From Candidatus Methanomethylophilaceae archaeon (GTDB lineage Archaea; Thermoplasmatota; Thermoplasmata; Methanomassiliicoccales; Methanomethylophilaceae): a stretch of 64,000 bases of DNA. Positions 2,621 through 57,219 of the stretch are shown here, piece after piece. Position 1 is the first letter of the stretch, and each line of letters begins with the position of its first letter. The position numbers were made by a program, and so were the translations under genes. Location of the stretch: contig CALUHR010000013.1 of assembly GCA_944320495.1 (NCBI GenBank), positions 96,001-160,000 on the forward strand. The letters are read 5' to 3'. The notes under the pieces are model-generated. The model had not been told where the DNA came from. It saw nothing but the letters and a program-made list of their open reading frames with translations, and did not search any database.

Positions 2621-4522
2621 TCGGACCCGCCCGACCCTCATGGTGGCCACCGGGCGGTCCCTCATGAAGCCGCTCACAACGATGTCGTACATCAGGTCGC
2701 GGTTGTCCCTGTAGGCGTCCATGACCGCCTCCGCCCTGCGGACGCACTCCGCCTCGTACGGGTCCAGGCCGGACACGTCCATCTCGGCCATCTCCACCTC
2801 GGAGTCCAGGTCCTCAGACATGGCCTCCCTGACCTTCGCCCTGCAGGCCTCCGACATCCCCGGGACGGACCTGTAGAGGGAGGAGCACTGCATGGACAGG
2901 GAGTCCTGCCTCATCATGAACCTCCTCAGCATCGGATCCGAGTCGCGGTCGGCGTTGATGAGCATCTTCTGGGAGACGCTGGCGGAGATTATCGCCAGCC
3001 CGGCCTCCTCCTCGGAGTCGTCCCTCCCGTCCAGCATGTCGCGGATGTTGCGGATCCTCTCGAGGCCTATGGCCAGCGAGCGGGCGGCCAGCTCCCTGTT
3101 CTCGTCGGATATCCTGTACGGGAGGACCACGCGGTTCGCGACCACGGCCACGAACACGCCGGCCAGCGTGAACAGGACGCGGTCGGCCGCCAGCGTCTCC
3201 GACGGCGAGACCATGGAGGATGCCACCAGCACCAGGATCGTGTAGAACAGCAGCCTGGTCTCGTAGCGGTCCGTCCCGACGACGACGTACGCGTAGCCGG
3301 CGAACAGTCCGACGGCCAGCATGAGTAGCGCATCGTAGCCGGCGACCGCCCACAGCACCAGGAATGCGGCGGCTCCTGCGAGCGTATGTGCCAGACGCAG
3401 CATGGATCCCCTCCACGAGTCCTCCAGGTACGGTACCACGGCGGCAACGACGGTGAACAGCATCCACTGGGCATTCTCCCATCCCCAGTACGACCATGCG
3501 AAGGCCACCAGGGCGAACATCAGGCCCATGCGGACACCGAAGGTGAACCTCGCCGAGTCCCTGCGGGCCTCCTCGCGGAGGGTCCGGATGACGGCGCGGA
3601 CGGTCGGGAGCCTGCCCTCACCGTACTCGCCCTCGGCCCCGGACTCCAGGGACTCCAGGCATCTGGCCATCTCCCTCAGCGCGATGACCGTGGATCTGCC
3701 GGCATCCGGATTGGAGGCCAGGAGCGCGTCGACCGCGGAGCGCACCGCGGAGGCCCCCACCTCGCCCGTCTCATGGGACGACACGATGGACATCAGCGGC
3801 CTCATGCCCCTCAGGACCCCTTCCGACCTCTCCGTCCTGCAGACAGAGCGGCCCACGTCCATGAGGGCCACGACCAGGTCGAGAACCCTCCTATCGCGCG
3901 GCGTGGTAAAGAAGTTGCCCTTCAGACGGTCGTACATCATACGATTCATGTCCGTGCACAGACGACCGAGGTCGGCCACGCTTGGCTCCCCTCCGTCCAG
4001 CACCTCGTCCGCGCACCTGGAGACCTCGTCGCATATGGCGATGACCCCGCGGTGACTGGAGCTGACCCTGCTGCCGCGATTCACCATCACGTTGAGCGCG
4101 ACGATGAAGACGGCGCTGACTGCCAGCACGAGCAGGCGGTCGGGCATCTCCTCCAGGGTCACGGGGAGCGTGACCATCGAGGCGTAGAACAGCAGCATGG
4201 GGAAGTGCATCGGGGAGCGGAGGTCCTGCATGGAGACGAAGACCACCACGAACACTACCACGAAGTTGACCGCGAGACCGAGGAACGGGTCCAGGGACGC
4301 CACGAAGGCCCCCAGACCCATGAAGACCATGAAGACCATCAGGCTCGCGAGATTCGAGAACGGGCGCGACGACAGGTCCTTCGAGAGCATCAGCATCGCG
4401 GCCGAGGAGACGGTGATCCCCAGCAGGGCGTAACGGGTCCCGAAGAGGAACAGGAACACCGCCATGAAGGCGCATATGACGGCGAACGTGAGCGTCTTGC
4501 CTCCCAAGGTCCTGCCGTCCAT
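2621..4522 (-). CDS. FUSC/YccS-like membrane protein (ends at CGA 2623-2621)
   Basis: Two hydrophobic blocks with AVVPY...SMLRLAHTLAG and ADRVLFTLAG motifs. In-frame CGA at codon 634 lies 4 nt from the convergent PLC stop; the standard-code ORF runs to 2537. Confidence 0.75.
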
Positions 4523-4601
4523 GGCATCGTCAGCGCGTGTACCTATTTAGAGACCCCGCGGACGGCAACAGATATGAACGGCGCAGGGGCATCATCGGCG
4601 C

Positions 4602-5504
4602 ATGAGGTCCGCGCTCCTGATACTGCCCATCCTTTCGGGTGTGATGTGGGGCGCAGCGGGGATATTCGTCCGCACACTCTCGGAGTACGGCTTCGACGGT
4701 CAGACCATCGCGTTCTCGCGCGTGCTCATCGCCATGGCCATGATGCTCCTGCTGATCCTGGCAACCGACAGGAGGATGCTCTCGTTCAGGAGGCGCGACA
4801 TCTGGCTGTTCGTCCTGTGCGCGGTGTCGATGACGGGGCTGAACGTGTTCTACACCATAGCCGCCGACGAGCTCTCGCTCTCCCTGGCGGCTGTCCTGCT
4901 CAGCCTGTCCCCGGTGTTCATGGTCCTCATCGCCCGCGTCATATTCGGCGAGGCCATCACCAGGCGCAAGGTGTTCTGCATAGCCGTATCCATCGTGGGA
5001 TGCGTCCTGGTGAGCGGATACCTCGAGAACGAATCTACGCTCTCGATGTTCGGCATCGCGTCAGGAATAGTCGCGGCGGTGTTCTACGCCGTCTACGGAA
5101 TAGCGTCGAAGAAGGCCTCCGCCAGCGGCTACAGCGTCTACACCACGCTGTTCTACTGCATGCTGATCTCCATGGTCATCCTGATCCCGTTCTCAGACCT
5201 CGGCATCGTGGCCGACTACGCGGGCGAGGGGGCCTGGGAGATCGGATTCCTGGTACTGCAGGCGGCGGTGGCATCGTTCCTGCCGTACATCCTGTACTCG
5301 GTGGCGATGGCGCGCATCGAGGCGGGCACGGGGTCGCTCCTGGCGGCCTGCGGGGAGCCGGTGGCGGCCGCCGTGTTCGGACTCCTGGTGTTCGCGGAGG
5401 TGCCGAGCCCGATCATGGTTGTCGGCATGGCCCTCGCCATCGGGGCGATGGCCACGATATGCATGAACCCCAAGAGGGAGGGGAACCTCGCGGAGGATCA
5501 TCGA
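4602..5504 (+). CDS. EamA/DMT family transporter (ends at CGA 5502-5504)
   Basis: Duplicated EamA-type hydrophobic halves, 300 aa to the CGA; under the standard code it would run ~210 nt antisense into the GNAT gene. Confidence 0.85.
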
Positions 5505-5971
5505 AGAAGCGGGCGTTCCATCACGATGCGCATGAGGCCGGCCCTTCCGGACTCCCGGAACCCCTTCCTGGAGTACAGCGAGATCGCCCCGGCGTTCCTC
5601 TCGTTGACCTCCAGGACGATCGAACGCGCCCCGGAGGAGCGGGCGATCCCCTCAACGCGGTCGATGGCCCTCGAACCGAGGCCGAGGCCACGGAACCCCT
5701 CGAAGAGGTAGAGCTTGCCCAGGTGCATCGCGTCCCCCTCCATGCCATAGGCGAGATATCCGGCGCGGACCCCGCACACTGTGATCCACTCGTAGACCAT
5801 GCCCTCGGCCATCTGCCTCCTTATGCCCTCGGACGACTGCTCCTGCTCCAGGAACTCGTCGAGGAGATCGTCCGGCACGTATGAGTAGACCTCTCTGAGT
5901 AGGGAGTATGCCAGACCGGAGAGCTCGTCGGCGTCCTCGGGACCCAGGCGCATGAAACCCGCTTCGCTCAA
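5501..5971 (-). CDS. GNAT family N-acetyltransferase (CGA 5503-5501 immediately followed by TGA 5500-5498)
   Basis: KLYLFEGFRGLGLGS acetyl-CoA motif and VNERNAGAISLYSRKGF; start TTG 5971 or ATG 5953. Confidence 0.85.
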
Positions 5972-6515
5972 GCAGCCTGCCCCCATCGTTCCAGTTGCCG
6001 CGGATCAGACCGCGGCGGGTGTCCGAGATGAACGAGTCCAGCCTGCTCCTGTAGGCCTCGGGCCTGTCGCGGTACAGCTGCACGTTCCCGAGCCTCACGC
6101 GGACGTACAGGTCCGGCAGGACCTGGAAGTTCTCCCAGACGACCGGGTCCGCCCTCAGCTCGTCGAGGACCGCCTCGTCCACGGAGAACGACATGTCCGG
6201 TAGGACCGCCCTGCCGGCGTCCGTCATGAGGCCCAGGCGCTCCAGCCTGCGGCAGCGCGCCTTGTTGAGCTCCGTCCATCTCGACCCCTTGCGGGGAGAG
6301 AACCTCTGGACAGTGCCCAGCTCCGGGTCCTTCCTGACCGTGGAATCGATCCAGCCGAAGCACAGGGCCTCCTCGACCGCATCGACGTACGGCAGGATGC
6401 CCGTCTGGGCCTTCGTCCTGTCCACCGCGACCCAACAGCCCCGGGAGGACCGATGGTTGTCCTCCAGCCAGGACCTGAAACCGGCACGGTCCAGGACGAG
6501 GACGTCCTGCTCCAT
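5964..6515 (-). CDS. YdeI/OmpD-associated family protein (ends at CGA 5966-5964)
   Basis: FRSWLEDNH, YVDAVEEALCFGWIDS, RFSPRKGSRWTELNK, GLMTDAG motifs; 183 aa ending NWNDGGRLLE. Confidence 0.85.
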
Positions 6516-7273
6516 CGGATGACCCCCGGTCTGTAGCCGATGTCGAGGATCCCCTCAATGACCCTGCGGACGTCGTCCGACGCCCTGTCGGCATCTTCGC
6601 GGGACATGACCCCTCCGTCCCTAGTCTCGACCATGTGCCAGGAGTGGTCTGCGATGACGATGTCTCCCTCCGCGGAGGCGGCCATGGCGATGTAGTCCCC
6701 GGGCCCCCTCCTGCCCTCGTGCATCGGCCAGAGGTAGGCGGCGATGACCTTGCCCCCTGGATCCCTGGCCTTGTTCACGGGAAACTCGACCATGTCCTCC
6801 AGAAGGAACGGCTCCGACGGGGAGCCCACATCCGTGTAGGACGATGAGTCGTGCCTGATACCCAGGCGGCGCACGGCGCTCAGGACCCTCGCGTCGGCGG
6901 TCATGTACGGCGCACGCGAGCAGACGGGCCTGCCCACCCTGTCGGAGACAGCCGAGAAGGAACGTGCCAGCGTGCCGCGGAGATGGTCATCCCCCAGGGA
7001 AGTCAGGTCCTCGTGGTCGTAGCCGTGGACGCCTATCGAATGCCCGGCGGCGCGTGCGCAGTCTATGACCTCGGAGGTGCGGCCCTCGAAGAACAGCGTG
7101 CCGCGGATGCCGATGCCGTCGAGCAGATCCAGTATCGCGCCCAGACCCCTCTCCGAGGACGAGAAGCGGGGGGCGTCGCCGAAGCCCCTGTCCAGGGACC
7201 CGGCGGCGACCCTCCCCGGGACGCGCACGTTGACGTCCCGGTCTATGTCGGCGGTGTAGTACAGCCGTCTCAT
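6515..7273 (-). CDS. Polysaccharide deacetylase (NodB-like) (ends at CGA 6517-6515)
   Basis: TADID, GTLFFEG, IGVHGYDHE, RAPY motifs; ATGA overlap with AMP phosphorylase and CGATG overlap with the next gene; 252 aa. Confidence 0.8.
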
Positions 7274-10021: not shown

Positions 10022-10948
10022 TCGCTCCCTTGAGAATATCCCGTCGCCCAGCTGCCTCACCATGACGTCATACACCGAGCCGGGACTCATCATGCCCAGC
10101 TCCGTGACGATCGCGTCTATGTACGCGGCGGGGGTGCTGTCGAACACTGGATTGAATATCTTTACCGAGTCGCGGACCTCCCCGGGCCTCACGACCTCGG
10201 AGATTTCGCGCTCCTCTATGGTCACCGAATCGCCGAACATTGTCATCGGCGAGAACTTGTAGGTCTCGGCGCAGGCGTAGAGGTGCACCCTGGCCTCGTG
10301 GGCGGCCAGCGCAAGCTGGGACGTCCCGACCTTGTTGATGAGGGCCCCCTGGGACGTGACGGTGTCGGCACCCACGAACACCTTGTCGACCTTGCGCATC
10401 ACCGAGCGCACCGCGCTGTCGATGATCAGCGTGACGTCCACGCCGGCGTCGGCCAGGTCGTTGACCGTCAGGATGCCCTGCCTCCAGGGACGGGACTCGG
10501 TTGCGTACACCCTGATGTCCTTCCCCTGCCTGTGGGCCTCCTTGATGACGCCTAGGGCGGCGCTGCTGTTGCAGTGCGTCATGATGACATCGCCGTCCTG
10601 GATCCTGCGTGCTCCGATGCGGGCGATCTCCTCCACCGCCCTCTCGGACCTTTCGCAGAATGCCTTCGCGTTGGCCAAGACCAGCGACCTTGCCTCCTCG
10701 AGGGAGGATGCCTCGGACGCGCCCCTGACCGTGGCGTGCAGCCCGTTCCACAGCGAGACCGCGGTGGGCCTCGATGCGAGGATCGTGTCGCTCGCCCCCT
10801 TCAGATCGGCGAGGAACCCCTCCAGGGTCCCCCCGGTGTACGTGTCGGCGAAGTCGCCCAGCGCGGACGCTCCCGCCCTGGCGATCCTCCCGGCCCCGCG
10901 AATCCTCATGCTGCGGATCAGCTCCGCAGTCTCCTCCGCCGTGGTCAC
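10022..10948 (-). CDS. Ribose-1,5-bisphosphate isomerase (eIF2B-alpha-like) (ends at CGA 10024-10022)
   Basis: IRGAGRIA, SRPTAVSL, MTHCNS, TESRP, VGAD, NKVGT, NPVFDSTP motifs; probable GTG start 10948; sequence reads GAG CGA TTT CG ATG(rbcL). Confidence 0.9.
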
Positions 10949-11666: not shown

Positions 11667-12157
11667 TTGCGTTGATAGACCCGACGGACAAGATGCGTTC
11701 GGAGGCCAAGATAGGCCGTGGAAGGGCTGAGAGCATCGTAGGGAACCTCAGATCGTTGAAAGTCCCTCTGCCTGCTTACAGCGAAGCAATCTGCAAAACC
11801 GGGGACTACTATCAGAAAGACAGAGATGCACGCCTGAGACTCTACGAGGAACTGGATCGCCTGAGGAGCAGGGGATTCGTCGAAGTGGAGTACATCAAAG
11901 ACCCAGAGACGCTGAGGCTCGCTTCGGAGATGGCAAGATCACGTACGGATGAACGTGACAAGATGTCGATCATGGATTCCCTGATCATCGCGACGGCGAC
12001 GTCCGATCCGGAATGCAGGACGTTCTACACCACCGATGACAAGTGCCTCCATAACAGCGAAGTCTGGGAGTTGAGCAGAGAGTTCAGGGAGAGACACGAG
12101 TTCGACAACGCGTCGATCTCCGTCCAGATGCTGTGGAAGACCAGAGCCTCTGCGTGA
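11633..12157 (+). CDS. PIN-domain protein (putative toxin RNase)
   Basis: YIDTCYLIAL, MSIMDSLIIATA and FYTTD carry the acidic PIN residues. Confidence 0.75.
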   Translation: MAVSYIDTCYLIALIDPTDKMRSEAKIGRGRAESIVGNLRSLKVPLPAYSEAICKTGDYYQKDRDARLRLYEELDRLRSRGFVEVEYIKDPETLRLASEMARSRTDERDKMSIMDSLIIATATSDPECRTFYTTDDKCLHNSEVWELSREFRERHEFDNASISVQMLWKTRASA

Positions 12158-12658
12158 TTCAAACATAGTACCCAACATCGAGATCTTCCACGGCTCGATG
12201 TGACAGTACCCCCCTGGGTTCCTGTCCAGGTACCTCTGGTGGTACTCCTCGGCCCTCGCCCACTGGGTGAGCGGTCCGCACTCGACATGGAACTCCGGAT
12301 ACCTCGGGGCCTCCCTCGAGAGGACATCTATCACCGTCCCCTCGGACTGGAGATCGGACCAGTAGACCCCGGTCTGGTACTGTATGCCGACGTCGTTCCC
12401 CTGGCGCCTCTCCTGAGTCGGGTCTATCAGGAACAGGAACACCTCCAGGAGGTCCTCCAGGCTCAGGGCCGAGGGATCGTACTCGACGCGCACCGCCTCC
12501 CGGTACCCGAACCTCCCCGAGCACACGAGCATGTAGTCCGGGATGTAGTGGGGGTCGCCATTGGCGTAGCCGCATTCGGTGGAGAGGATCCCGGGGATGT
12601 CCTCCAGCGCCCTCTCCAGGCCCCAGAAGCATCCGCCCGCGAGATGTATGACGCTCAA
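12113..12658 (-). CDS. msrA: Peptide methionine sulfoxide reductase A (first in-frame CGA 12115-12113)
   Basis: AGGCFWG, GYANG, RQGNDVGIQY, AEEYHQRYL, GYCHI; TTG start overlaps the thyX stop. Confidence 0.92.
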
Positions 12659-40104: not shown

Positions 40105-40105
40105 A

Positions 40106-43250: not shown

Positions 43251-43251
43251 A

Positions 43252-44121: not shown

Positions 44122-44231
44122 AATTGGGACATTGACGTACCATTATTAATTTTAACTATTTTAGTATAAATTCAATTTTGAATTTGATAATAATATTTAA
44201 GACCATTATCCAGATTGAACTATGAACGGTT

Positions 44232-45545: not shown

Positions 45546-46678
45546 CGAATACGACCGTTGACTTCTCCATCGTCATACCCACATGGAACAGAAAGGAGTA
45601 CGTTGAACGTCTCCTGAAATCCATCGCAGAGGACAGACAATCCTACACGGGCGGCTCTACAGAGATAATAATCGTAGACAGTAGCGTGGATGAGGAACGC
45701 GACTCCATAATGGAATCCTGCAAAAGGTATGGTGCACGCTATATTGAAGGGCCCGACTCTGTGAGGAAAAAACGCAACATGGGAATCGTGGATTCGCGGT
45801 TCGACCATATCCTCTTCCTAGACTCAGACGTCATAGTGGAGAAGGGACTTCTGGAAGCGCACGCCAGAGTGTACGAAGAGTCCCCATCAGAGAATCTTGG
45901 AGGCACATTCGGCGTAACCGAATTCTATGGAGAAAGGTCATTCATCTGGAAAGTTGTCGAATACACGAACTACACTGTTGCGTTCGATCAGGCTAAGAAA
46001 TACCCCTATGTGAACTGGACGATTGGAAACAACGTTTCTTTCGTAAAGAAATGTCTCGTAGACATAGGTATGTTCGAAGAAAACCTGCCGTTTAAGCTTG
46101 GAGGAGATGATCTCGATCTAAGCTATCGGGTAGTCGCCAGCGGGCATCCGATCAAATGTACGTCAGAGGCAGTGACATATCATTCTCGTGAAACATGGAA
46201 TTCCAGAGATGCCATCAATAACAGGACGAAGAGATGGGGTGCGATGGAGTACTACAACTCGAAACGTCACTGGAATTTGATGAAGAAGACCCTCCCCGGG
46301 CTTCCGATCATGTTCTCTATGGCAACACTGTCCCTTTTGATATCATTCCTAATAACAGAATCAACAGCGTTTCTATGGTCTATCCCTGTGATCGGTATTC
46401 TGACGTTCATAATCGGTTTTGCCTGTGATGCTACTAACAGCCACAGATACAATATCATATACTATGGATTAGCGAAACTCCTCGGTGTAAAATACAGCTA
46501 TTACAAAATCAAAGAGTGCTGGCACAATCATGACTTCGGGCTGATTGGAAGAGTCATGATCTTTGACAAAGGACATGCCATGGCCGAATATTCTGCGAGA
46601 AGCCGTAAAATGGACTGGTTCCTGATATCGTCCGTAGCAGTATTCCTCATAGATTTCCTACTTACAAGGATGGGTTGA
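45542..46678 (+). CDS. GT2 glycosyltransferase with C-terminal TM helices
   Basis: SIVIPTWNR, FLDSD, GGDDLD; GTG start overlapping the ugd stop. Confidence 0.85.
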   Translation: MTNTTVDFSIVIPTWNRKEYVERLLKSIAEDRQSYTGGSTEIIIVDSSVDEERDSIMESCKRYGARYIEGPDSVRKKRNMGIVDSRFDHILFLDSDVIVEKGLLEAHARVYEESPSENLGGTFGVTEFYGERSFIWKVVEYTNYTVAFDQAKKYPYVNWTIGNNVSFVKKCLVDIGMFEENLPFKLGGDDLDLSYRVVASGHPIKCTSEAVTYHSRETWNSRDAINNRTKRWGAMEYYNSKRHWNLMKKTLPGLPIMFSMATLSLLISFLITESTAFLWSIPVIGILTFIIGFACDATNSHRYNIIYYGLAKLLGVKYSYYKIKECWHNHDFGLIGRVMIFDKGHAMAEYSARSRKMDWFLISSVAVFLIDFLLTRMG

Positions 46679-46682
46679 CTCC

Positions 46683-47789
46683 ATGGACTTCAGTGTCGTT
46701 ATACCGGCCCGCGGTCGCACGGATCTCCTCAGAACACTGCTGGAGAGCCTGAATACCGCCAGGGGTTTCAATGACGGTGATGTGGAAATCCTGATTCTAG
46801 ACGATAGCGACGAACCGTATTCGACAGCGATCAAATCCATGTCTACAGGACTCGGTGCAAGCTATATTCGTGCTGAAATGACAGTGGGTGCTAAGAGAAA
46901 TCTCGGTGCCAGAATGTCAAATCACGACATCGTTGTTTTTCTTGATTCAGATGTTCGTGTGTCCGATAATTTCTTCTGCGGATATGAAAGGGTTTTCGCC
47001 GCCAAGGAGATCAACATGGCGATAGGACTTTTGGAGTTCTATGGCGACGAGAGCTGGTACTGGAAGGTTGTCAAGTCCACCCCGTTCGTAAAATGTTTTG
47101 ACATGCCACGGTACATGGACATGCTCCCATGGGGATGTTCCTGCAACATGGCAGTCCGGAGAGACTTCTTCCTTGAACTATCCGGATTCAGCGATGAATT
47201 CCGCGAACCGGCAGGAGAGGATGTTGATCTAGGCCTTAGGGTTAGCAAGCGCCACATTCCAATAGTCCCAGTCAAAGAATCGGTGGCGTTCCATTCCAAC
47301 ACCACCTGGTCAAAGAGACGGGACATGATCCGTCGTGTTTGCATGTACGGGAGAGGGGATGCAGTCCTTGTTGAACGCCATCCTGACTCGACGGTGAGAT
47401 CGGGCCTCCGCCGTTGGATCTTTTTCCTCGCTATCACCATAATCTGCTGTCTTTCGGCAATCGTTTCTGAAAATGCCTGGATGCTTCTGATGATACCGAC
47501 ACTCATTGTTGCCGAACTCCTCGCTGTATCTGCCAAGATATCGGTAAAAACTGAAGATGTTAGCCTGTGTCAGGCACTGGCATCCCAAGAGCTGGTGCTA
47601 CGCAATGAGCTGTCATACATCTTGACCTGCATATCAAGAGGACATCCGGGCAACGTCTTCAGACAGATCGTCACCGTTGAGGGACAGGCATATGACATCT
47701 TGGATTTCATGAGATTCGCCTACCTATTGGACCTTGGTCTGCTGATGCTCCTCTTCATATTCTCGGGATTGGTGATAACATATGCATGA
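46683..47789 (+). CDS. GT2 glycosyltransferase with C-terminal TM helices
   Basis: SVVIPARGR, FLDSD, GFSDEF, GEDVD. Confidence 0.85.
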   Translation: MDFSVVIPARGRTDLLRTLLESLNTARGFNDGDVEILILDDSDEPYSTAIKSMSTGLGASYIRAEMTVGAKRNLGARMSNHDIVVFLDSDVRVSDNFFCGYERVFAAKEINMAIGLLEFYGDESWYWKVVKSTPFVKCFDMPRYMDMLPWGCSCNMAVRRDFFLELSGFSDEFREPAGEDVDLGLRVSKRHIPIVPVKESVAFHSNTTWSKRRDMIRRVCMYGRGDAVLVERHPDSTVRSGLRRWIFFLAITIICCLSAIVSENAWMLLMIPTLIVAELLAVSAKISVKTEDVSLCQALASQELVLRNELSYILTCISRGHPGNVFRQIVTVEGQAYDILDFMRFAYLLDLGLLMLLFIFSGLVITYA

Positions 47790-48972
47790 AGAACAGATGA
47801 AAAAATTCCTCCAGTGCGTAAAGTCGGGTTATTTCAACAATCCTGTCACCATAGAACGTGTAGAACCGTTGAAAGGTCTGTCAGAGCTGTCATATGACGA
47901 CTTTTGTCACATCCCGGTAATGACGAAGAGCGACATAAGATCGACATCCATCGAAACACGCGAACTCGAAAGCGGAAGATGCGTCGGCATATTCTCCAGC
48001 AGCGGATCCACCGGCAAGAGGACATATTATAAGTTCAGCCAAGAGGACCAGGATGTCTTCAATGAGACTGCCAGAGAGCTGTTCGGCAGACTCGGCGTGA
48101 ATTCCGACGATGTCTTCGCTGTTTGTGCCCCCGTAGGGGAGGGGATAATGGCCCACTGCATGATATGGGAGGCCATTGCCAACTGCTCGGGGTATACTGT
48201 ATGCCCAACCCCATCGCCTTCGAATGTGATGGAAATGTTGGACAACATCCCTGTAACGATAATAGCGGGATTGCCGTCTGTCTTGGACTTCTCGCTTGAA
48301 TCAGAGAAGGGGACACAGAGCCATAAGACGCATCTTCGCATGATGATCTCTGGCGGGCACTATATGTCCGAAGCGAAGCGCGATCGCATCGAGTCAGTCT
48401 GGGGGATAGAATGGTACAATGCGTATGGAATCAGCGAATTCTTCGGTCCGTTGATGTGCGAGTGCCGCTGTAAAAACGGATTCCATTACAACCAGAAATG
48501 TCTCTTCGTCGAAATTGTAGATGTCCATTCCAAAGAACCTATCGAGGGACCGGGGAAAATCGGCATAATGTTGCTCACACCTCTATGGAAGAAAGGATCC
48601 CCTCTGATCAGATACTGGACTGACGACTACGCCGAATGGATAGACGAACCCTGTACTTGCGGTGCATTCGGACGCAGAATCAGGATACTTGGCAGACAAT
48701 GTGATGTGATTTGCATCAATGGGAGATACATCTTCCCCAACGACATCGAAGAGATTCTCGTCAGGAACAGCAGAAACACCTTGGCATACTTCGACATCGA
48801 AGATGATGATATCGTCTGCTTCCTCCCGGAAATTAACGGATCATGCGGAGAGCTTGAGAGACTCTTTGACACAGAGATTCACTTCAAAACAAAGAGCGAA
48901 TGGCCCAATATCAACCGCCCGAAGCCATATTACTTCAGCAAAACATTGAAACAGAGGCTGAGTGACAGATGA
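47782..48972 (+). CDS. Phenylacetate-CoA ligase (PaaK)-like adenylating enzyme
   Basis: IPVMTKSDIR, SSSGSTGK, YGISE, PLIRYWTDD, CTCG, LGRQCD. Confidence 0.8.
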   Translation: MHEEQMKKFLQCVKSGYFNNPVTIERVEPLKGLSELSYDDFCHIPVMTKSDIRSTSIETRELESGRCVGIFSSSGSTGKRTYYKFSQEDQDVFNETARELFGRLGVNSDDVFAVCAPVGEGIMAHCMIWEAIANCSGYTVCPTPSPSNVMEMLDNIPVTIIAGLPSVLDFSLESEKGTQSHKTHLRMMISGGHYMSEAKRDRIESVWGIEWYNAYGISEFFGPLMCECRCKNGFHYNQKCLFVEIVDVHSKEPIEGPGKIGIMLLTPLWKKGSPLIRYWTDDYAEWIDEPCTCGAFGRRIRILGRQCDVICINGRYIFPNDIEEILVRNSRNTLAYFDIEDDDIVCFLPEINGSCGELERLFDTEIHFKTKSEWPNINRPKPYYFSKTLKQRLSDR

Positions 48973-49892
48973 GTCGCATACTTGTCACCGGAGGACTTGG
49001 ATTCATCGGAACCAACCTGACCCTCAGGCTATTGAAATCAGGTGACGAAGTGGTGGTCATAGATAATGCGTATACCTCCAGCCTGGAGCGTATTTCTGCA
49101 TTCGAAGAATACGATGGATTCGAATTCATAAACCAAGATGTAACAACGCCTTTTGATGAACTGAACGTTGATGGCATCTATCATCTGGCCGCACCTGCAT
49201 CTCCGATAAAATACTCCAGAAATCCGGCGTATACCGTCAGAACCATCGTGGAAGGCGCGTTCAATGCATTGGAATGCGCGAGGAACAATGATTGCCGCAT
49301 ACTGGTTGCGTCCACCAGCGAGATTTATGGTGAGTGTGAAAAACACCCTCAGAGCGAAACGTACAACGGCAATGTTTGCACCATGTCCACAAGAGCCTGT
49401 TACGATGAGGCCAAAAGATGCGCAGAGACGGTCTCATTCTGCTATCATGAGACATATGGCGTAAACGTCGTCTGCCCCCGTATTTTCAACACGTATGGGC
49501 CATACATGCAGCTTGATGACGGCCGTGTGATGACCTCATTCATCAGTTCGCTTCTGAAATCAGAACCCCTGAGGATTTTTGGAGATGGGGAACAGACGAG
49601 ATCGTTCTGCTACATCGACGACCTGCTCGACGGTTTAGAACTTGTATTCTCATCCTCACTGAAAGGCAAAGCCATCAACATCGGCAATGATTTCGAGATA
49701 TCAATAAACAAATTGGCGGACATATTCGAAGAGATCTGCGGAAGGAGCTTTGAAAGAATCTATGAGAAACGCATGGACCACGAACCGATGAACAGGTGTC
49801 CCGACCTTAGCCTTATCCGCAACACACTAGGTTACAGACCGAGGATGAACATCCGCGACGGCCTGACTCGTATGGTTGAGTTCTACAGGCGA
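48969..49892 (+). CDS. UDP-glucuronate decarboxylase-like NAD-dependent epimerase/dehydratase (ends at CGA 49890-49892)
   Basis: TGGLGFIG, HLAAPASP, STSEIYG, CYDEAKR, RIFNTYGP, QTRSFCY; ends LTRMVEFYR, 4 nt before the next ATG. Confidence 0.88.
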
Positions 49893-49896
49893 TTCG

Positions 49897-50757
49897 ATGG
49901 AAGTCACAGTAGTCATCCCAACACTGAACGAAGAAAAGCATATTCGTGAGTGCCTAGAGAGTGTGTGGTCCAATACTGTGAAACCGATTGAGATCCTTGT
50001 CTGCGATGGAGGATCCGATGATGAAACTGTTCGCATCGCTGAATCTCTAGGGGCTAAAGTCCTTATCAACAAGGACCGGACAGCTGCAACCGGCCGCAAC
50101 CTTGGCATAGCCAATGCCTCCGGTGACATAATCGCGTTCACCGACGGGGACTGCAAAGTCGATGTACATTGGATCGAATCTTTGCTGAAGGAGTTCGAAG
50201 ATTGCAATGTAGATGGCGTTGGTGGCAAAACCATTCCTGCTGATACAGATAATGAAATTGAGAGATTCTGGGGGCATATATCTCTCGAAGTCATCATGTC
50301 GTTTCCGGATCATGATTATACTGTAACCAATCGGACTCTTAATGATGCGTTTATTACTGCCAATTGTTCCTATAGGACTGATTTTCTTAGAACAATTGGC
50401 GGTTTTGACCCTTGGTTCGGCAACAACGCAGAGGATGTTGACCTATCGTGGCGTGCACTTAGTCACGGTGCGAAGCTCAGATATTGCCCTCATGCCGTGG
50501 TCATCGCTCATTCTCCTCAGACAATACGCGAAATGTGCCAGAAGAGCTTCCGCAATGGGGTCTCCTCCACCAAACTCCAGAAAGTACACAGCGGAGAGGA
50601 ATCCAGCCTCGATATCGAACTGTATCACACCCTGGTCAGATCGCTCATTGGGACGTTTAAGATGAACAAACAAGACCTTCTGCTGTCTGTCGAATTGATG
50701 TGTCACATTTGGGGAAAGATATCGAGCAGCAGAAAACTGCACTACCGTAACTGGTGA
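49897..50757 (+). CDS. GT2 glycosyltransferase
   Basis: MEVTVVIPTLNEE, DGGSDD, FTDGD, AEDVD. Confidence 0.88.
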   Translation: MEVTVVIPTLNEEKHIRECLESVWSNTVKPIEILVCDGGSDDETVRIAESLGAKVLINKDRTAATGRNLGIANASGDIIAFTDGDCKVDVHWIESLLKEFEDCNVDGVGGKTIPADTDNEIERFWGHISLEVIMSFPDHDYTVTNRTLNDAFITANCSYRTDFLRTIGGFDPWFGNNAEDVDLSWRALSHGAKLRYCPHAVVIAHSPQTIREMCQKSFRNGVSSTKLQKVHSGEESSLDIELYHTLVRSLIGTFKMNKQDLLLSVELMCHIWGKISSSRKLHYRNW

Positions 50758-51701
50758 TCGGGATGGATGAGATTATACTGGAAATCAGCGGGAATTGCAA
50801 TCTCGATTGCAATATGTGTGGATACGGAAGATCCAAAACGAAAGAAAAAAAGCTCATGACCCGCAAGATGTTCGAACATGTGATTGAACACTACTGCGAG
50901 GGCATACGGACCCTTCGGTTGAACGCGTGTGGAGAGAGTACTATACACCCTGAATTTAAAGAACTCCTATCCTACGCAAGACAGACACTGCCTGACGTTG
51001 ATATCAAACTATTCTCCAACATCAATTATCGGGATCCGTCCATCTCGAAAGCCATAGTAGATGCGGATGTGCAACTGATCATGTCCATAGACTCTGTGGA
51101 TCGTGATCGTATAGGGATCATAAGACGCGGATCGGACTATGACACCATTATGCGCAACTTCGATTATCTGTCCAGAAATCTGAAATTGAAGGCTGTTATG
51201 TTTACTCTGCAGACCAGAAACTTCGATGAGCTGATGGAGGTCGGAAGGTTCTCGCTAGATCACGATTGCCACTTCTTCTGCAACATGGTTAATGGTGAAC
51301 CGCACCTCTCGGAGTTGGAATCGCTGCTGATGAACGAAGACAATCTGATGAAGCTTAGATCTGAATTCGAAGAACTTCATCGTCTCGCGGTTTCAAAAGG
51401 GCTTAGAGCATTTCTGCCAGACCACGTCGGAACTGTGCACATACCGGCAAATGAAACAGACGACCTTATGCTAAAAACCACTGGGCAGGGCCGTTGTAAT
51501 CGTTTCCAATCCGAACTATGCATACATTATGATGGCACGGTGACACCTTGCGGAATGTTCAACCCCTATATCTACGGGAATGTCATGGATTACACTCGCG
51601 AATCTCTGCTGGAATCGGAAAGATATCGTCTTTTCCAGAAAAACCAGGCCAATGATGATTACTGCAAAAACTGCGGATGCATGCTGGTTCAGGAATTATG
51701 A
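50754..51701 (+). CDS. Radical SAM protein with SPASM/twitch-like C-terminus
   Basis: CNLDCNMC, GES, DGTVTPC...GNV...CKNC. Confidence 0.85.
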   Translation: MIGMDEIILEISGNCNLDCNMCGYGRSKTKEKKLMTRKMFEHVIEHYCEGIRTLRLNACGESTIHPEFKELLSYARQTLPDVDIKLFSNINYRDPSISKAIVDADVQLIMSIDSVDRDRIGIIRRGSDYDTIMRNFDYLSRNLKLKAVMFTLQTRNFDELMEVGRFSLDHDCHFFCNMVNGEPHLSELESLLMNEDNLMKLRSEFEELHRLAVSKGLRAFLPDHVGTVHIPANETDDLMLKTTGQGRCNRFQSELCIHYDGTVTPCGMFNPYIYGNVMDYTRESLLESERYRLFQKNQANDDYCKNCGCMLVQEL

Positions 51702-52993
51702 CCGTGACGCCTAGATCAAATGATGGCCTTTCGATAATCATCATTACACATAACAATGAATATATTGTAAGAGTTGTGGAGGCCGTATTGGAACAGATCT
51801 CACCGGTAGACGAGGTCATACTTGTGAATGATCATTCGGATGAAAGATTCCTAAGCGGCATCCCCACACATCCATCATTGAAGATTGTAACACCGGTGAT
51901 GGAGGGCAACAGGAGCCATAATAGGAATATCGGTGCTGAACTCTCATCCCGCGGAATCCTAGTCTTTATCGATGGGGATGTCCTAATCCAAGAAGGATCG
52001 CTATCTTGTATACGCGATACGGGTAAACATACACCCCTCACCTTCAATGTCATGGCACAGTCAATCACTCTGGAACAGTTGTGTATGCTGAATCAGAGAA
52101 CGGACATTATGAACGCCGTACTGAACAAGAGATTCGAGTATCTGGATCACCTCGACGGTATGCGTGATTGGCGCTTGGATGATTCACCCTACGGTCCTGA
52201 CATGGAGGATTGGTGCGTGTTCTACACATTGTTCTGTTCCATCCCAAAACATCTCTTCGTTCAGGCAGGAGGATTCGACGAATCCATTCACGGATGGGGC
52301 TGTGAAGACGTGGATCTTGGATTCAGACTGAAACGGATGGGAGCGAACATACATTTCATCGAAACAATTCGTGCTATACACATTCCACACCCCCGTAACA
52401 ACTACATTCAGAACTTGAATGGACGCAGGAATCTCTACCATATGCTCCAAAGATACAGGGATATCGACATTGAACGCGTGATAGCATTCGGCACATCATG
52501 TATGGTCAGATCTGCTTTATCGAACATACTCGAGAAATGCTCATCCATGGATGATACGAGTATAATACCGTCAGATTGTGATTTGATTCTCACATTTCGT
52601 TCTGGAAATCCAGTCTTGATAGTACGCGATAAAGACAGAAAAACCGAATGGCCATCAATGGGTCTAGCTATACCGTTTGAGAACACCCACTTTCATCAAG
52701 CGTACATTTCTGAGAATTACTTCCTGCTCCCTGAAGGATTATATTGCAGGGTTCTTCAGGAACTGTGTCGCGTTTCGAAGTATGTGATTACAAGATGTCC
52801 CGATAGAAAAAACAGACCGACATTCGATAGATGGGTTCATGACTCTTTGAAACACGCATACTGCTACACAGATATCATCCATCTATCCAATCAAATCAGG
52901 GATTTTTCATTCCAAAACAACGGAGAGTACATCGAAGTTTCATATCAGCCTGGATTTGATAATAGTCGCGAACCTAACATGTTGAATGATCGA
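51698..52993 (+). CDS. GT2 glycosyltransferase with C-terminal extension (ends at CGA 52991-52993)
   Basis: SIIIITHN, VNDHS, FIDGD, GGFDE..HGWGCEDVD; the standard-code ORF would run through the direct repeat into hipA antisense. Confidence 0.8.
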
Positions 52994-53062: not shown

Positions 53063-53118
53063 TTCCGAGGGCATGCGGATGAATCGCGGACGGCCGTTAT
53101 GAGCGTTGGCGATGTAGA
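53063..53118. repeat. Direct repeat, right copy (56 bp)
   Basis: TTCCGAGGGCATGCGGATGAATCGCGGACGGCCGTTATGAGCGTTGGCGATGTAGA. Confidence 0.95.
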
Positions 53119-53148
53119 ATCGGTATCACGACGCAGAAGACGGAGCCG

Positions 53149-54297: not shown

Positions 54298-54442
54298 GCA
54301 ATCATGTCGCATATGCTATCGTTCTCTTTAGAACCTGCTCTCATAATTCAATGTCCCAGCAAATGTTCGAAACGACGGATCGTCTGGTAACTGGAACGAT
54401 AACACAATTCCGTACTTTCGTAACACGAAGACTATTTAACGT

Positions 54443-55114: not shown

Positions 55115-55123
55115 GGTGGCGAC

Positions 55124-56446
55124 ATGAGGGTTCTCACCGTCGGAGGCGGAGGAAGGGAGCATGCCGCCGTGGAGGCGTTCCACAGGGCCGGCTCCGAGCT
55201 GTACTGCGTCATGAAGAACGCCAACCCCGGCATCCTCGCCAGAGCCAAGGGCCACCTCCTGTGCGACGAGAAGGACGTCGCCAAGGTCGTGGAGTTCGCC
55301 AAGGCGAACGACATCGAGCTCGCGTTCATCGGCCCCGAGGCCCCGCTCGGCGAGGGCATCGTCGATGCTCTCGAGGCCGCCGGCATCAGGTGCGCCTCCC
55401 CCACGAAGGCCGCCGCGAGGATCGAGACGTCCAAATCGTTCATGAGGGAGCTCGTGGAGAGACACGGCATCGACGGGAACCTCTCCTACGCCAGCTTCGA
55501 CAACGCCGAGGACGCCGAGGCCTATCTGAAGGGGATCGACCACGAGATCGTCGTAAAGCCCGTCGGCCTCACCGGCGGCAAGGGAGTCAAGGTCCAGGGC
55601 GAGCACCTCCACGGTTTCGACGAGACCATGGAGTACGTCAGGGAGATCTTCGACGGCAACATCGGCGGCGCAGGGGTCATCCTCGAGGAGAGGGCGGTGG
55701 GCGAGGAGTTCACCCAGATGGTCTTCTCCGACGGGGAGCGCGTCGTCCCCATGCCCCTGGTCCAGGACCACAAGAGGGCCTACGAGGGCGATGTCGGCCC
55801 CAACACCGGCGGAATGGGCTCCTACACCGACGCGGACCATCTCCTCCCGTTCATCGGAGAGGACGACCGCATGAAGGCCATCGCCATCGTCCAGTCAATC
55901 GTGGATGCCCTGGCCGAAGAGGGATGCCCCTACCGCGGCGTGATGTACGGCCAGTTCATGCTCACCATCAACGGCCCGAAGATCATCGAGATCAACGCCA
56001 GATTCGGCGACCCGGAGGCCATGAACGTCCTGACCGTACTGGATTCGAACTTCGAGGACATCTGCTGGAGGATGGCCACCGGCACCCTGGACGCTGGCGC
56101 GGAGTTCTCCCCCAAGGCGACCGTCTGCAAGTACGTCGTCCCGAAGGGATACGGCGTCAAGTCCGAGGCTGGCCACGAGATCTCCGTCGACGAGGAGGCC
56201 ATCCGCGGATGCGGGGCCGTGGCGTACTACGCGAACGTCGACATGAGGGACGGCAAGCTCGTCACCGGCACCTCCAGGTCCATCGGGGTGGTCGGCATCG
56301 GCGACTCCATCGAGGAGGCCGAGGCCAACTGCGAGAGGGCCCTCGCGCACGTGAGGTGCGACGCAGTGTTCGTCCGCCACGACATCGGAACCCGCGAGCT
56401 GGTCCAGCGCAGGGTCGACCACATGAAGGCCCTCAGGTCCGCATGA
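55124..56446 (+). CDS. purD: Phosphoribosylamine-glycine ligase
   Basis: GGGGREHA, GPEAPL, IETSK, GKGV, QDHKR, GPNTGGMG, EINARFGDPE. Confidence 0.96.
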   Translation: MRVLTVGGGGREHAAVEAFHRAGSELYCVMKNANPGILARAKGHLLCDEKDVAKVVEFAKANDIELAFIGPEAPLGEGIVDALEAAGIRCASPTKAAARIETSKSFMRELVERHGIDGNLSYASFDNAEDAEAYLKGIDHEIVVKPVGLTGGKGVKVQGEHLHGFDETMEYVREIFDGNIGGAGVILEERAVGEEFTQMVFSDGERVVPMPLVQDHKRAYEGDVGPNTGGMGSYTDADHLLPFIGEDDRMKAIAIVQSIVDALAEEGCPYRGVMYGQFMLTINGPKIIEINARFGDPEAMNVLTVLDSNFEDICWRMATGTLDAGAEFSPKATVCKYVVPKGYGVKSEAGHEISVDEEAIRGCGAVAYYANVDMRDGKLVTGTSRSIGVVGIGDSIEEAEANCERALAHVRCDAVFVRHDIGTRELVQRRVDHMKALRSA

Positions 56447-57219
56447 CGGACATAGCCGTCAGGGTCGCCTACCGCGGCGAGGGGTTCTACGGGTCGCAGA
56501 TGCAGCCCAGGCTCCCCACCGTGGAGGGGACCCTGCTGGCGAACATCGTCCGCGTGACCGAGATGGATCCGGAGGACGTGTGCCTCAGGCTCGCCAGCCG
56601 CACGGACAAGGGGGTCAGCGCCACAGGCAACGTCGCATCCTTCGAGAGCGGCGGCGCCGACCCCGTCAACCTTCTAAAGGCCCTCAACTCGGTGCACGGC
56701 GGCGTGCTGTGCACCGCCTACGCCGAGGTGGACGACGACTTCACGCCGCGCCACGCGGACCGCAGGACATACGAGTACGTAGCCAAGGCCCGCGGGCTCG
56801 ATGCGGACGTGGCGAACGAGTGCCTCTCCATGTTCCGCGGGAGGAGGGACTTCTCCGGCTTCTGCAAGGCCGAGGGGAAGGACCCTGTCATCGACCTCAC
56901 GAGGGCGGACGCCGTCGTGGACGGCGACGTCCTGATAATGACCTTCGAGGCGGACCACTTCCTCTGGAACATGGTCCGCAGGATATCCGCCGCGGTCCTC
57001 CGCGCGGCATCCGGCAGGATGCCCGTGTCCAGGATCGAGGAGGCCCTCGCCGGCGGATGGTCCAACTTCGGGATAGCCCCGGCCGAGGGGCTGACCCTCA
57101 CCGACGTGTTCTACGATGGGATGGGGTTCATCCCATCCCCCGACCCGGCCCTCGCGTACAGGAAGGCGGACGGACTATACTCGGCGAGGCTCGCCGAGAG
57201 GTTCTACGGGAAGCTCCGA
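56443..57219 (+). CDS. truA: tRNA pseudouridine synthase A (ends at CGA 57217-57219)
   Basis: AYRGEGFYGSQ, ASRTDKGVS, RTYEY, DFSGF, FLWNMVRRI, APAEGL; 258 aa ending FYGKL. Confidence 0.92.

What the first reader, a model, noticed from the sequence alone, without database searches (positions are those of the whole stretch)
2621..57219. CGA behaves as a stop codon: candidate new genetic code
Seen: 16 genes have their first in-frame CGA at or near the expected protein end. They are FUSC 2623-2621, EamA 5502, GNAT 5503, YdeI 5966, deacetylase 6517, R15P isomerase 10024, msrA 12115, HAD 14728, prmC 18552, AAA-PDDEXK 25437, kptA 26036, wHTH 26041, HD 37564, UXS 49890, GT2 52991 and truA 57217. In most, the standard-code ORF continues as a junk tail into a neighbouring gene (e.g. 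~210 nt for EamA, ~690 nt for wHTH). msrA is the weakest case, since it still overlaps the PIN gene by 45 nt. Established: no standard translation table I know uses CGA as stop, and the sense-to-stop changes I know (AGA/AGG, TCA, TTA) are mitochondrial. Inference: either the release factor aRF1 reads CGA and tRNA-Arg(UCG) is lost, or CGA is C-to-U edited to UGA as in plant organelles.
Basis: partly seen in the sequence, partly recalled or inferred. Interest (0 to 1): 0.98.

Follow-up and report, generated by a model that had tools for sequence, protein, structure and literature searches.

The report
CGA used as stop codon
In this gut methanogen the arginine codon CGA has vanished from inside genes and instead ends about a quarter of them exactly where relatives carry TGA or TAA, so it very probably acts as a fourth (leaky) stop codon, which is not established for any organism outside organelles.

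Summary
Observation confirmed. Fourteen are followed by non-coding tails of 9 to 229 codons; two (GNAT, HAD) are uninformative.

- **Genome-wide:** about 366 of 1523 called genes end at CGA. In a 64-codon screen that does not assume a code, CGA groups with TGA and TAA and far from every sense codon.
- **Not codon bias:** a low-GC island in the window has 296 Arg codons and no CGA.
- **Orthologues:** 28 of 30 CGA-ended genes have TGA, TAA or CGA at the aligned end in another genus.
- **Not an artefact:** independent public assemblies and sister species carry the same CGAs.

Interpretation partly supported. tRNA-Arg(UCG) is not lost but conserved. Frame-blind C-to-U editing does not fit a signal confined to one frame.

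Only two internal CGAs exist in the genome:
- a conserved Arg in the aRF1 gene itself, CGA in 31 of 31 genus genomes;
- the in-frame GmhA|GmhB junction, CGA in 24 of 30 and TAG in 3.

Best model: aRF1 reads CGA as a weak stop in competition with tRNA-Arg(UCG), with possible aRF1 autoregulation. Yeast eRF1 is a precedent.

No protein or RNA evidence was available. The scan had already noted this code on other windows of the same genome. I found no publication describing it.

The parts
2621..2623 (-). CGA terminator of a 633-aa membrane protein gene (2621..4522). The table-11 frame runs 27 more codons to TGA.
5502..5504 (+). CGA terminator of the EamA transporter gene (4602..5504), with a 68-codon junk tail. 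It shares the palindrome TCGA (5501-5504) with the convergent GNAT gene.
   Evidence: TIGR00950 ends at residue 282 of 300.
5501..5503 (-). CGA at the end of the GNAT gene (5501..5953), followed at once by TGA. Uninformative on its own.
5964..5966 (-). CGA terminator of the YdeI-like gene (5964..6515), with a 103-codon tail.
6515..6517 (-). CGA terminator of the polysaccharide deacetylase gene (6515..7273), with a 96-codon tail. CGATG overlaps the start of the next gene.
   Evidence: orthologues end with CGA in 4 same-genus genomes and with TGA in 5, all within 0-9 codons.
10022..10024 (-). CGA terminator of the ribose-1,5-bisphosphate isomerase gene (10022..10948), with a 66-codon tail overlapping the RuBisCO-like gene.
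   Evidence: homologues end exactly here; the same CGA is in independent ENA assemblies.
12113..12115 (-). CGA terminator of msrA (12113..12658). Weakest case: it lies 28 residues after the PMSR domain, with a 45-nt convergent overlap.
14728..14730 (+). CGA at the end of the HAD hydrolase gene (14071..14730). TGA follows two codons later, so the case is uninformative on its own.
18552..18554 (+). CGA terminator of the HemK2/MTQ2-type methyltransferase gene (17985..18554), with a 26-codon tail.
   Evidence: NF011529 matches residues 6-187 of 189, profile positions 7-195 of 198.
25437..25439 (+). CGA terminator of the AAA/PD-(D/E)XK gene (23793..25439), with an 18-codon tail.
26036..26041 (.). 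Palindrome CGATCG. It holds the CGA terminator of kptA (25493..26038, +) and the CGA terminator of a wHTH gene (26039..26326, -, 229-codon tail).
   Evidence: NF002014 ends at residue 174 of 181.
37562..37564 (-). CGA terminator of the HD-domain gene (37562..38002), with a 9-codon tail.
49890..49892 (+). CGA terminator of the UDP-sugar dehydratase/decarboxylase (UXS-like) gene (48969..49892) in the low-GC island.
   Evidence: PF16363 spans residues 5-302 and the full profile (1-332 of 332). The protein has 307 aa.
52991..52993 (+). CGA terminator of the GT2 glycosyltransferase gene (51677..52993), with a 145-codon tail.
57217..57219 (+). CGA terminator of truA (56443..57219), with a 23-codon tail.
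39004..52993 (.). Low-GC (0.47) glycosylation island of 12 genes. All Arg codons are used except CGA (0 of 296). Two genes end at CGA.

Best explanation
In this Methanomethylophilaceae archaeon and its genus, CGA works as a translation terminator alongside TGA and TAA.

Shown: in-frame CGA is purged from gene bodies and sits at the protein end of about 24% of genes, at the position where orthologues have TGA or TAA.

Inferred mechanism: the single aRF1 recognises CGA in the A site as a near-cognate of UGA and releases the peptide. It competes with a retained tRNA-Arg(UCG), so termination is somewhat leaky and depends on context.

The competition appears to be exploited at the only two internal CGAs.
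- One encodes a conserved Arg in the N domain of the aRF1 gene itself. This is a candidate negative feedback: plentiful aRF1 would truncate its own synthesis, and scarce aRF1 would let tRNA-Arg read through.
- The other joins GmhA to GmhB in frame. This is a candidate programmed read-through that would give GmhA alone and a GmhA-GmhB fusion.

This would also explain why tRNA-Arg(UCG) is kept.

Likely origin (inference): a UGA-centred aRF1 in a lineage that reads TAG as pyrrolysine, followed by loss of CGA from genes, after which GC pressure turned TGA stops into CGA.
For: **Statistics**
- 64-codon screen: fraction going from coding to non-coding is TGA 0.89, CGA 0.87, TAA 0.84, next TTA 0.39.
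- Terminators of 1523 called genes: 1094 TGA, 366 CGA, 47 TAA, 16 TAG.
- Tails after CGA score -0.82 per codon, against -0.91 after TGA and +0.52 in gene bodies.

**Not codon bias**
- The low-GC island has 0 CGA among 296 Arg codons, with all other rare codons in use.

**Orthologue ends**
- 28 of 30 CGA-ended genes have TGA (22), TAA (4) or CGA (2) within 8 codons of the aligned end in genus g9. TGA-ended genes give 116 of 123.
- Homologues of the R15P isomerase end exactly at the CGA.
- Deacetylase orthologues alternate between CGA and TGA.

**Real DNA**
- The same CGA is present in ENA assemblies from 5 samples, with 57-72x coverage in the three SPAdes contigs whose names give it.
- The exact aRF1 protein is found on 43 contigs.

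**Translation-level mechanism**
- Only in-frame CGAs are avoided, out of about 97,600 CGA triplets in all frames.

**Internal CGAs**
- aRF1 codon 78 is CGA in 31 of 31 genus genomes, while flanking synonymous sites vary.
- Outside the genus the same Arg is CGT, AGG, AGA, CGC or CGG. Sister genera instead carry a single CGA at codon 25 in 11 of 13 genomes.
- The GmhA|GmhB junction is CGA in 24 of 30 genomes, TAG in 3, and another Arg codon in 2.

**tRNA and backup stops**
- tRNA-Arg(UCG) is kept, with compensatory stem changes.
- A further stop or CGA lies within 5 codons in 45% of CGA-ended genes, against 27% after TGA.

**Precedent**
- Yeast eRF1/eRF3 releases peptides at CGA in competition with tRNA-Arg. 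The UGA-biased mutant L123R, at the x of YxCxxxF, enhances this (PMC7379694).
- The aRF1 here has Y-R-C-D-S-T-F, with Arg at that x.
- eRF1-mediated premature termination at rare codons is also reported in Neurospora (PMC6755126, abstract only).
Against: - There is no protein, ribosome-profiling or RNA evidence.
- A functional-looking tRNA-Arg(UCG) is present, so CGA should be read as Arg at least some of the time.
- No aRF1 substitution specific to the CGA-rich clade lies in NIKS, YxCxxxF or the GTEL loop. The Y-R-C motif is shared with families that use CGA as a sense codon, so it cannot be sufficient.
- All established class-I release-factor stop codons begin with U (general knowledge).
- Another rare Arg codon, CGT at aRF1 residue 186, is also fixed in 31 of 31 genomes. 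Fixation of a rare codon therefore does not by itself prove a regulatory role.
- The autoregulation and read-through ideas rest on conservation alone.
Confidence: 0.72

Rival explanations
1. CGA is an effectively unassigned 'hungry' codon. tRNA-Arg(UCG) decodes it poorly, ribosomes stall, and they are resolved by a rescue route (Pelota-type splitting or drop-off) rather than by aRF1 decoding CGA.
For: - The tRNA-Arg(UCG) genes of the genus have unusual anticodon arms. Type A has a mismatch at 31-39 in all members. Type B (G008, G023, G007) has C33 in place of the universal U33.
- CGA ends are enriched in tight junctions and have more backup stops.
Against: - Pelota/Dom34-type factors lack the GGQ motif and do not hydrolyse peptidyl-tRNA (general knowledge). 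They would not deliver a quarter of the proteome productively.
- Core genes such as truA, the R15P isomerase and HemK2 end at CGA.
- A CGA conserved specifically in the release-factor gene points to aRF1 acting on CGA.
- G070 has a normal tRNA-Arg(UCG) yet also shows stop-like CGA.
Confidence: 0.13
2. C-to-U editing of the mRNA turns terminal CGA into UGA, as in plant organelles.
For: CGA and UGA differ by a single C-to-U change, and orthologues mostly have TGA at these sites.
Against: - The avoidance is specific to one frame. Off-frame CGA is abundant inside genes: 244 of 9300 in the island and about 97,600 triplets genome-wide.
- No shared flanking motif exists at the 366 sites beyond overlaps with neighbouring genes.
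- A frame-blind deaminase would recode NCG-A codons on a massive scale, yet the proteins align normally with their homologues.
- The aRF1 CGA sits at a conserved Arg.
Confidence: 0.05
3. CGA is simply a very rare Arg codon under the standard code. The 'ends' are stop-loss mutations or true C-terminal extensions, or an assembly or in-silico artefact.
For: - Codon bias is extreme: GC3 is 0.87, and TTA, CAA and AGT are nearly as rare in gene cores.
- tRNA-Arg(UCG) exists.
Against: - Other codons of similar rarity behave as sense codons. The fraction with coding sequence on both sides is 0.29-0.50 for TTA, CAA and CGG, against 0.01 for CGA.
- The island with relaxed bias has 0 CGA of 296 Arg codons.
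- The tails score as non-coding and run antisense through neighbouring genes.
- Orthologue ends coincide with the CGA.
- The same CGAs are found in independent assemblies and in several species.
Confidence: 0.03

Closest known systems
Sense-to-stop codes of organelles: AGA/AGG in vertebrate mitochondria (table 2), TCA in Scenedesmus mitochondria (table 22), TTA in Thraustochytrium mitochondria (table 23). From general knowledge; see also PMC12574857 on pedinophyte organelles.
   Same: A sense codon disappears from gene bodies and marks gene ends.
   Different: - This is a free-living (gut) archaeon with about 1500 genes, not an organelle.
- The codon is CGA.
- The cognate tRNA is retained.
- Two conserved internal sites remain, so the codon looks dual-use or leaky.
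Misdecoding of CGA by yeast eRF1/eRF3 (Wada & Ito 2018, PMC7379694)
   Same: - An eRF1-family factor releases peptides at CGA in competition with tRNA-Arg.
- UGA-biased variants with Arg at the x of YxCxxxF do this better, and the aRF1 here has Y-R-C.
   Different: In yeast this is a weak side reaction on reporters. Here it would be the regular terminator of about a quarter of the genes. No assay has been done for this aRF1.
Autoregulation of bacterial RF2 (prfB) through an in-frame UGA (general knowledge)
   Same: The gene for the release factor carries, early in its frame, a codon that the factor itself is proposed to read. The codon is strictly conserved (31 of 31).
   Different: - There is no frameshift. 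Bypass would be ordinary decoding by tRNA-Arg at a conserved Arg position.
- The feedback is inferred from conservation alone.
Genetic Code 34: all TAG read as pyrrolysine in Methanomethylophilus and others (Kivenson et al., bioRxiv 10.1101/2024.09.30.615893)
   Same: - Same family.
- PylS is present here.
- TAG does not behave as a stop here.
   Different: That paper does not mention CGA. It describes a stop-to-sense change, whereas this is sense-to-stop.
Speculation that CGA may be a stop in two hydrothermal-vent archaeal MAGs (Melnykov 2026, bioRxiv 10.64898/2026.04.02.715157)
   Same: CGA is absent from recognisable domains in archaeal genomes.
   Different: - A different lineage: GC near 50%, CGG read as Trp, and tRNA-UCG not found.
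- No evidence from gene ends was presented.
Unassigned codons under strong compositional bias: AGA/AUA in Micrococcus luteus, CGG in Mycoplasma capricolum (general knowledge)
   Same: A rare codon is driven out of genes by GC or AT pressure.
   Different: There the codon is simply unused and its tRNA is lost. Here it is used 366 times, at gene ends, and the tRNA is kept.

Membership tests
Sense-to-stop genetic code variant | The codon is absent from conserved sense positions in genes. | tested here: met
   - Only 2 true internal CGAs in 1.77 Mb.
- 0 CGA of 296 Arg codons in the low-GC island.
- Gene cores hold 0.3 CGA per 1000 codons.
Sense-to-stop genetic code variant | The codon lies at gene ends where orthologues carry standard stops. 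| tested here: met
   - 28 of 30 CGA-ended genes against genus g9.
- An exact match for the R15P isomerase.
- Deacetylase orthologues alternate between CGA and TGA.
Sense-to-stop genetic code variant | The cognate tRNA is lost or disabled. | tested here: not met
   - tRNA-Arg(UCG) is present and conserved with compensatory changes.
- It does have an unusual anticodon arm: a 31-39 mismatch in one type and C33 in the other.
Sense-to-stop genetic code variant | A release factor recognises the codon, or the proteins end there. | not testable with these tools
   This needs a release assay, proteomics or ribosome profiling.
prfB-like autoregulation of a release factor | A conserved in-frame codon in the factor's own gene, read by that factor. 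| tested here: met
   - CGA at aRF1 codon 78 in 31 of 31 genus genomes.
- Other Arg codons at this site outside the genus.
- Sister genera have a single CGA at codon 25 in 11 of 13 genomes.
- That aRF1 actually reads CGA is inferred.
prfB-like autoregulation of a release factor | Bypass by programmed +1 frameshift. | tested here: not met
   The frame is continuous and the CGA aligns with a conserved Arg.
Genetic Code 34 (TAG = Pyl) | Pyl machinery is present and TAG occurs inside genes. | tested here: inconclusive
   - PylS scores 260.8 bits, over its cut-off.
- For TAG, 18 of 182 in-frame cases are coding on both sides and the drop fraction is only 0.28.
- tRNA-Pyl and pylBCD were not searched.
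- The one TAG-ended gene in the window gave no Pfam support for read-through.

The most novel reading that the evidence does not exclude
CGA is a regulated, dual-meaning codon in an archaeal clade.
- It is the regular terminator of up to a quarter of the genes, read by aRF1 even though its first base is C.
- The same competition between aRF1 and tRNA-Arg(UCG) is used as a sensor codon in the aRF1 mRNA. That would be the first autogenous control of an archaeal or eukaryotic-type release factor, analogous to prfB.
- It is also used as a programmed read-through site that fuses GmhA to GmhB.
- The change arose as a by-product of a UGA-centred aRF1 in a lineage that gave TAG to pyrrolysine.
Probability: 0.4. 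Interest if true: 0.97.

Novelty: new variant of a known kind. Interest (0 to 1): 0.92.

Why it matters
If confirmed, this would be:
- the first sense-to-stop change of the genetic code in a cellular (non-organellar) genome;
- the first archaeal sense-codon change with genome-wide consequences;
- the first stop codon not beginning with U that an eRF1-family factor reads as a regular terminator.

It gives a natural system for three questions: how release factors discriminate the first base, how a codon can change meaning while its tRNA persists, and whether release factors outside bacteria regulate their own synthesis.

There is a practical consequence. Public annotations of these gut methanogens carry junk C-terminal extensions and spurious gene overlaps on roughly a tenth to a quarter of proteins. 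An example is proteins P0001, P0002 and P0004. Gene callers need a table in which CGA is a stop.

A cultured relative appears to show the same signal at a lower frequency. G070 has a single contig of 1,666,795 bp. I identify it as Methanomethylophilus alvus Mx1201 from my memory of that genome's size only. If correct, the claim can be tested directly.

Tried and rejected
- **Artefact hypothesis:** rejected after finding the same CGAs in sister species and in independent ENA assemblies.
- **A global in-silico TAA-to-CGA swap:** I considered this because TTAA would become TCGA. Rejected, because real TAA- and TAG-ended genes remain and other species share the pattern.
- **Systematic sequencing error at a methylation motif:** considered. 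The context has no single motif. The T at +4 comes from CGATG and CGATC junctions, and the assemblies are short-read SPAdes or MEGAHIT contigs.
- **Loss of tRNA-Arg(UCG):** rejected. A plain DNA search and two pattern searches wrongly suggested absence in G008, G023 and G007. A covariance model then found a diverged copy with C33.
- **aRF1 substitutions specific to the clade:** none found in the codon-recognition motifs. The family-level changes next to NIKS (Y to Q, S to A, R to M) are shared with genera that read CGA as a sense codon.
- **A conserved RNA element around the aRF1 CGA:** third-position entropy there is average, 0.8-1.0 against a mean of 0.82.
- **TAG read-through of the gene at 32268-33089:** no Pfam support.
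- **Naming the genus:** the cluster look-up gave no organism names.

Full report
**1. What the window is**

The window is G000:C13:96001-160000 of a 1.77-Mb assembly in 14 contigs with 62% GC. Protein names of close homologues place it in the Methanomethylophilaceae, order Methanomassiliicoccales. PylS is present. I could not verify the name.

**2.

Every one of the 16 CGA codons is at the stated coordinates.

Read with table 11, 14 of the genes run on for 9 to 229 codons into or through neighbouring genes. Read with CGA=*, the ORF map becomes a clean tiling and no gene is broken. A 1221-aa kinase-domain protein and an 1867-aa STT3-like protein contain no CGA at all.

GNAT (TGA directly after the CGA) and HAD (one codon, then TGA) are uninformative alone.

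Two sites are palindromes shared by convergent genes: TCGA at 5501-5504 and CGATCG at 26036-26041.

**3. It is not chance and not codon bias**

Codon bias in this genome is extreme, with GC3 at 0.87. TTA, CAA and AGT are nearly as rare as CGA in gene cores, so rarity alone proves nothing. Three tests separate CGA from merely rare codons.

(a) A screen of all 64 codons that scores CGA and the stops as zero. It asks whether 40 coding-like codons upstream are followed by coding or by non-coding sequence.

| Codon | Fraction coding to non-coding | Fraction coding on both sides |
|---|---|---|
| TGA | 0.89 | 0.03 |
| CGA | 0.87 | 0.01 |
| TAA | 0.84 | 0.04 |
| TTA (next highest) | 0.39 | 0.29 |
| TAG | 0.28 | 0.10 |
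| Median sense codon | 0.11 | not given |

(b) The low-GC island in the window (39004-52993, GC 0.47) uses every rare codon freely. Yet it has 0 CGA among 296 Arg codons: CGG 23, CGC 59, CGT 54, AGA 102, AGG 58. Off-frame CGA there is 244 of 9300.

(c) Tails after CGA score as non-coding, -0.82 per codon. That is like sequence after TGA (-0.91) and unlike gene bodies (+0.52).

With a four-stop gene caller, 1523 genes end in TGA 1094, CGA 366, TAA 47 and TAG 16.

**4. The CGAs sit where proteins end**

- The table-11 translation of the R15P isomerase has homologues that cover only its first 308 residues. They end at ...GDGIFxxE, exactly before the CGA.
- Deacetylase orthologues in ten same-genus genomes end with CGA (4) or TGA (5) within 0-9 codons of the aligned end.
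- Profiles for HemK2, KptA, UXS, TruA and EamA end at or just before the CGA. None extends into a tail.
- In an unbiased comparison with 440 kb of a genome of another genus (G070), 28 of 30 CGA-ended genes have TGA (22), TAA (4) or CGA (2) within 8 codons of the aligned C-terminus. The rate for TGA-ended genes is the same, 116 of 123.

**5. It is real DNA**

- Public proteins P0001, P0002 and P0004 (98, 82 and 79% identical) carry the same junk tail.
- Their contigs come from five independent ENA samples. They include SPAdes contigs at 57-72x and a MEGAHIT contig, and all have CGA at the site.
- The exact aRF1 protein occurs on 43 contigs from NCBI, ENA and Logan.
- Raw reads could not be examined.

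**6. Distribution**

- In samples of 17-40 kb per genome, CGA is absent from gene cores across the genus.
- CGA ends are frequent in a subclade that includes G021 and G010. On tRNA-Arg(UCG) and aRF1 similarity, G026, G041, G042, G046 and G009 group with G000 as well, but no coding samples were taken from them. CGA ends are rarer in G004, G008, G023 and G039.
- G070 shows the same signature at lower frequency. Of 62 in-frame CGAs, 3 are coding on both sides and 23 drop, against 315, 144 and 40 for CGG. About 3% of its orthologue ends are CGA.
- G070 belongs to genus g9. Its single contig of 1,666,795 bp matches my memory of the size of M. alvus Mx1201. That is the only basis for the identification.
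- Genus g14, genome G062, and the other families of the order use CGA as an ordinary sense codon.

**7. The mechanism must act at the ribosome**

Only in-frame CGAs are avoided, out of about 97,600 CGA triplets. This excludes DNA-level artefacts and frame-blind RNA editing. The 366 sites share no flanking motif other than overlaps with neighbouring genes.

**8. The tRNA is not lost**

- All five Arg tRNAs are present, including UCG.
- tRNA-Arg(UCG) is conserved across the genus, with compensatory changes in the acceptor and anticodon stems.
- Its anticodon arm is unusual. One type has a non-Watson-Crick 31-39 pair in every member. The other type (G008, G023, G007) has C33.
- G070 has a normal copy.

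**9. The only two internal CGAs**

Of the four CGAs with coding sequence on both sides, two are followed at once by the ATG of an in-frame next gene. The other two are true internal sites.

(i) Codon 78 of aRF1, the conserved Arg of AARLKTY, which corresponds to eRF1 QQRLKLY.
- It is CGA in 31 of 31 genus genomes, while neighbouring synonymous sites vary freely. The local context T-CGA-C is invariant.
- Outside the genus the same Arg is CGT, AGG, AGA, CGC or CGG.
- 11 of 13 genomes of sister genera instead carry a single CGA at aRF1 codon 25.
- With two internal CGAs in about 430,000 codons, the chance that one falls in aRF1 is about 0.2% (my arithmetic).

(ii) The in-frame junction of GmhA and GmhB (L187:819-1901, minus strand, 360 aa), with no start codon after it.
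- It is CGA in 24 of 30 genus genomes, TAG in 3, and another Arg codon in 2.

Both are places where partial termination makes biological sense. They would also explain why the tRNA is kept. A caveat: CGT at aRF1 residue 186 is also fixed in 31 of 31 genomes.

**10. Precedent**

- Wada and Ito showed that yeast eRF1/eRF3 releases peptides at CGA, even at a single terminal CGA, in competition with tRNA-Arg. UGA-biased mutants L123F, L123R and L123Y, at the x of Y122-x-C124, enhance this (PMC7379694).
- The aRF1 here reads Y-R-C-D-S-T-F. That motif is shared with lineages where CGA is a sense codon, so it can be at most a predisposition.
- Pelota-type rescue lacks a GGQ motif, so it is a poor candidate for productive release (general knowledge).

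**11. Signs of leakiness**

- A further stop or CGA lies within five codons in 45% of CGA-ended genes, against 27% of TGA-ended genes.
- CGA-ended genes have lower codon-adaptation scores, 0.55 against 0.70.

**12. Literature**

- Kivenson et al. do not mention CGA.
- Melnykov 2026 only raises the possibility for two unrelated vent MAGs.
- Codetta cannot infer sense-to-stop changes: a codon with no inferred amino-acid meaning is left as '?'.
- Four full-text searches found no description of this code.
- Earlier notes of this scan report the same code on other windows of this genome and on another genome of the family. I re-derived the core tests independently. Conservation of the aRF1 and GmhA|GmhB sites does not appear in the summaries returned to me, which are truncated.

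**13. Verdict**

'CGA is a terminator' is strongly supported by sequence evidence but untested at the protein level. 'tRNA lost' and 'RNA editing' are not supported.

The best model is aRF1 reading CGA as a leaky stop in competition with tRNA-Arg(UCG), with two programmed exceptions.

Noticed in passing
window 39004-52993: A low-GC (0.47 against 0.62) island of 12 glycosylation genes (GT2, epimerase/dehydratase and others), probably acquired horizontally. It nevertheless obeys the no-internal-CGA rule, and two of its genes end at CGA.
   Followed up: partly
window 26036-26041 and 5501-5504; genome-wide: CGA terminators are concentrated in very tight gene junctions.
- CGATG (stop/start overlap): 23%, against 7.5% for TGATG.
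- CGATCG (two convergent CGA ends): 15%, against 1.8% for TGATCA.
- TCGA: 4-nt convergent overlaps.
Outside these pentamers the +4 base is not enriched in T. Unexplained.
   Followed up: partly
G000:C2:85936-87165 (aRF1; L035:1084-2346, minus strand): The aRF1 gene carries one of only two internal CGAs in the genome, at a conserved Arg. It is CGA in 31 of 31 genus genomes, in the invariant context T-CGA-C. In G041 the terminator of aRF1 itself is CGA. Residue R186, next to GGQ, is the rare codon CGT in 31 of 31.
   Followed up: yes
G000:C13:193621-194700 (L187:819-1901, minus strand): GmhA and GmhB lie in one frame, joined by CGA in 24 of 30 genus genomes, TAG in 3, and another Arg codon in 2. 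This is a candidate programmed read-through or fusion site.
   Followed up: yes
L153-L159 (G008, G023, G007): In one subclade of the genus, tRNA-Arg(UCG) has the anticodon loop CCUCGAC, with C33 in place of the universal U33. The other subclade has a non-Watson-Crick 31-39 pair in every member.
   Followed up: partly
whole genome; G000:C9:67854-68522: TAG does not behave as a stop. Its drop fraction is 0.28, and 18 in-frame TAGs have coding sequence on both sides. PylS is present. This is consistent with the TAG = pyrrolysine code reported for this family.
   Followed up: partly
window 17985-18554: The HemK2/MTQ2-type methyltransferase, whose family methylates the GGQ glutamine of eRF1/aRF1, is itself one of the CGA-terminated genes.
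   Followed up: no
L105-L116 (genera g9, g10, g11, g13, g14): Sister genera carry a single conserved CGA at aRF1 codon 25 (the Arg of YRG) in 11 of 13 genomes, instead of at codon 78.
   Followed up: partly
public proteins P0001, P0002, P0004: Public protein databases hold table-11 translations of these genomes with junk C-terminal tails. In one search the tails are 27-66 residues on the R15P isomerase.
   Followed up: yes
G096:C47:15586-16497 and G083:C1:2283-3191: Another genus of the order (g21) has a second, divergent aRF1 paralogue at 37% identity. One copy has an in-frame TAG.
   Followed up: no
window 58122-63725 (-) and 28606-32271 (+): Two very large genes: an 1867-aa STT3/AglB-like oligosaccharyltransferase with extra domains, and a 1221-aa protein with a C-terminal Ser/Thr kinase domain. 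Neither contains a CGA.
   Followed up: partly
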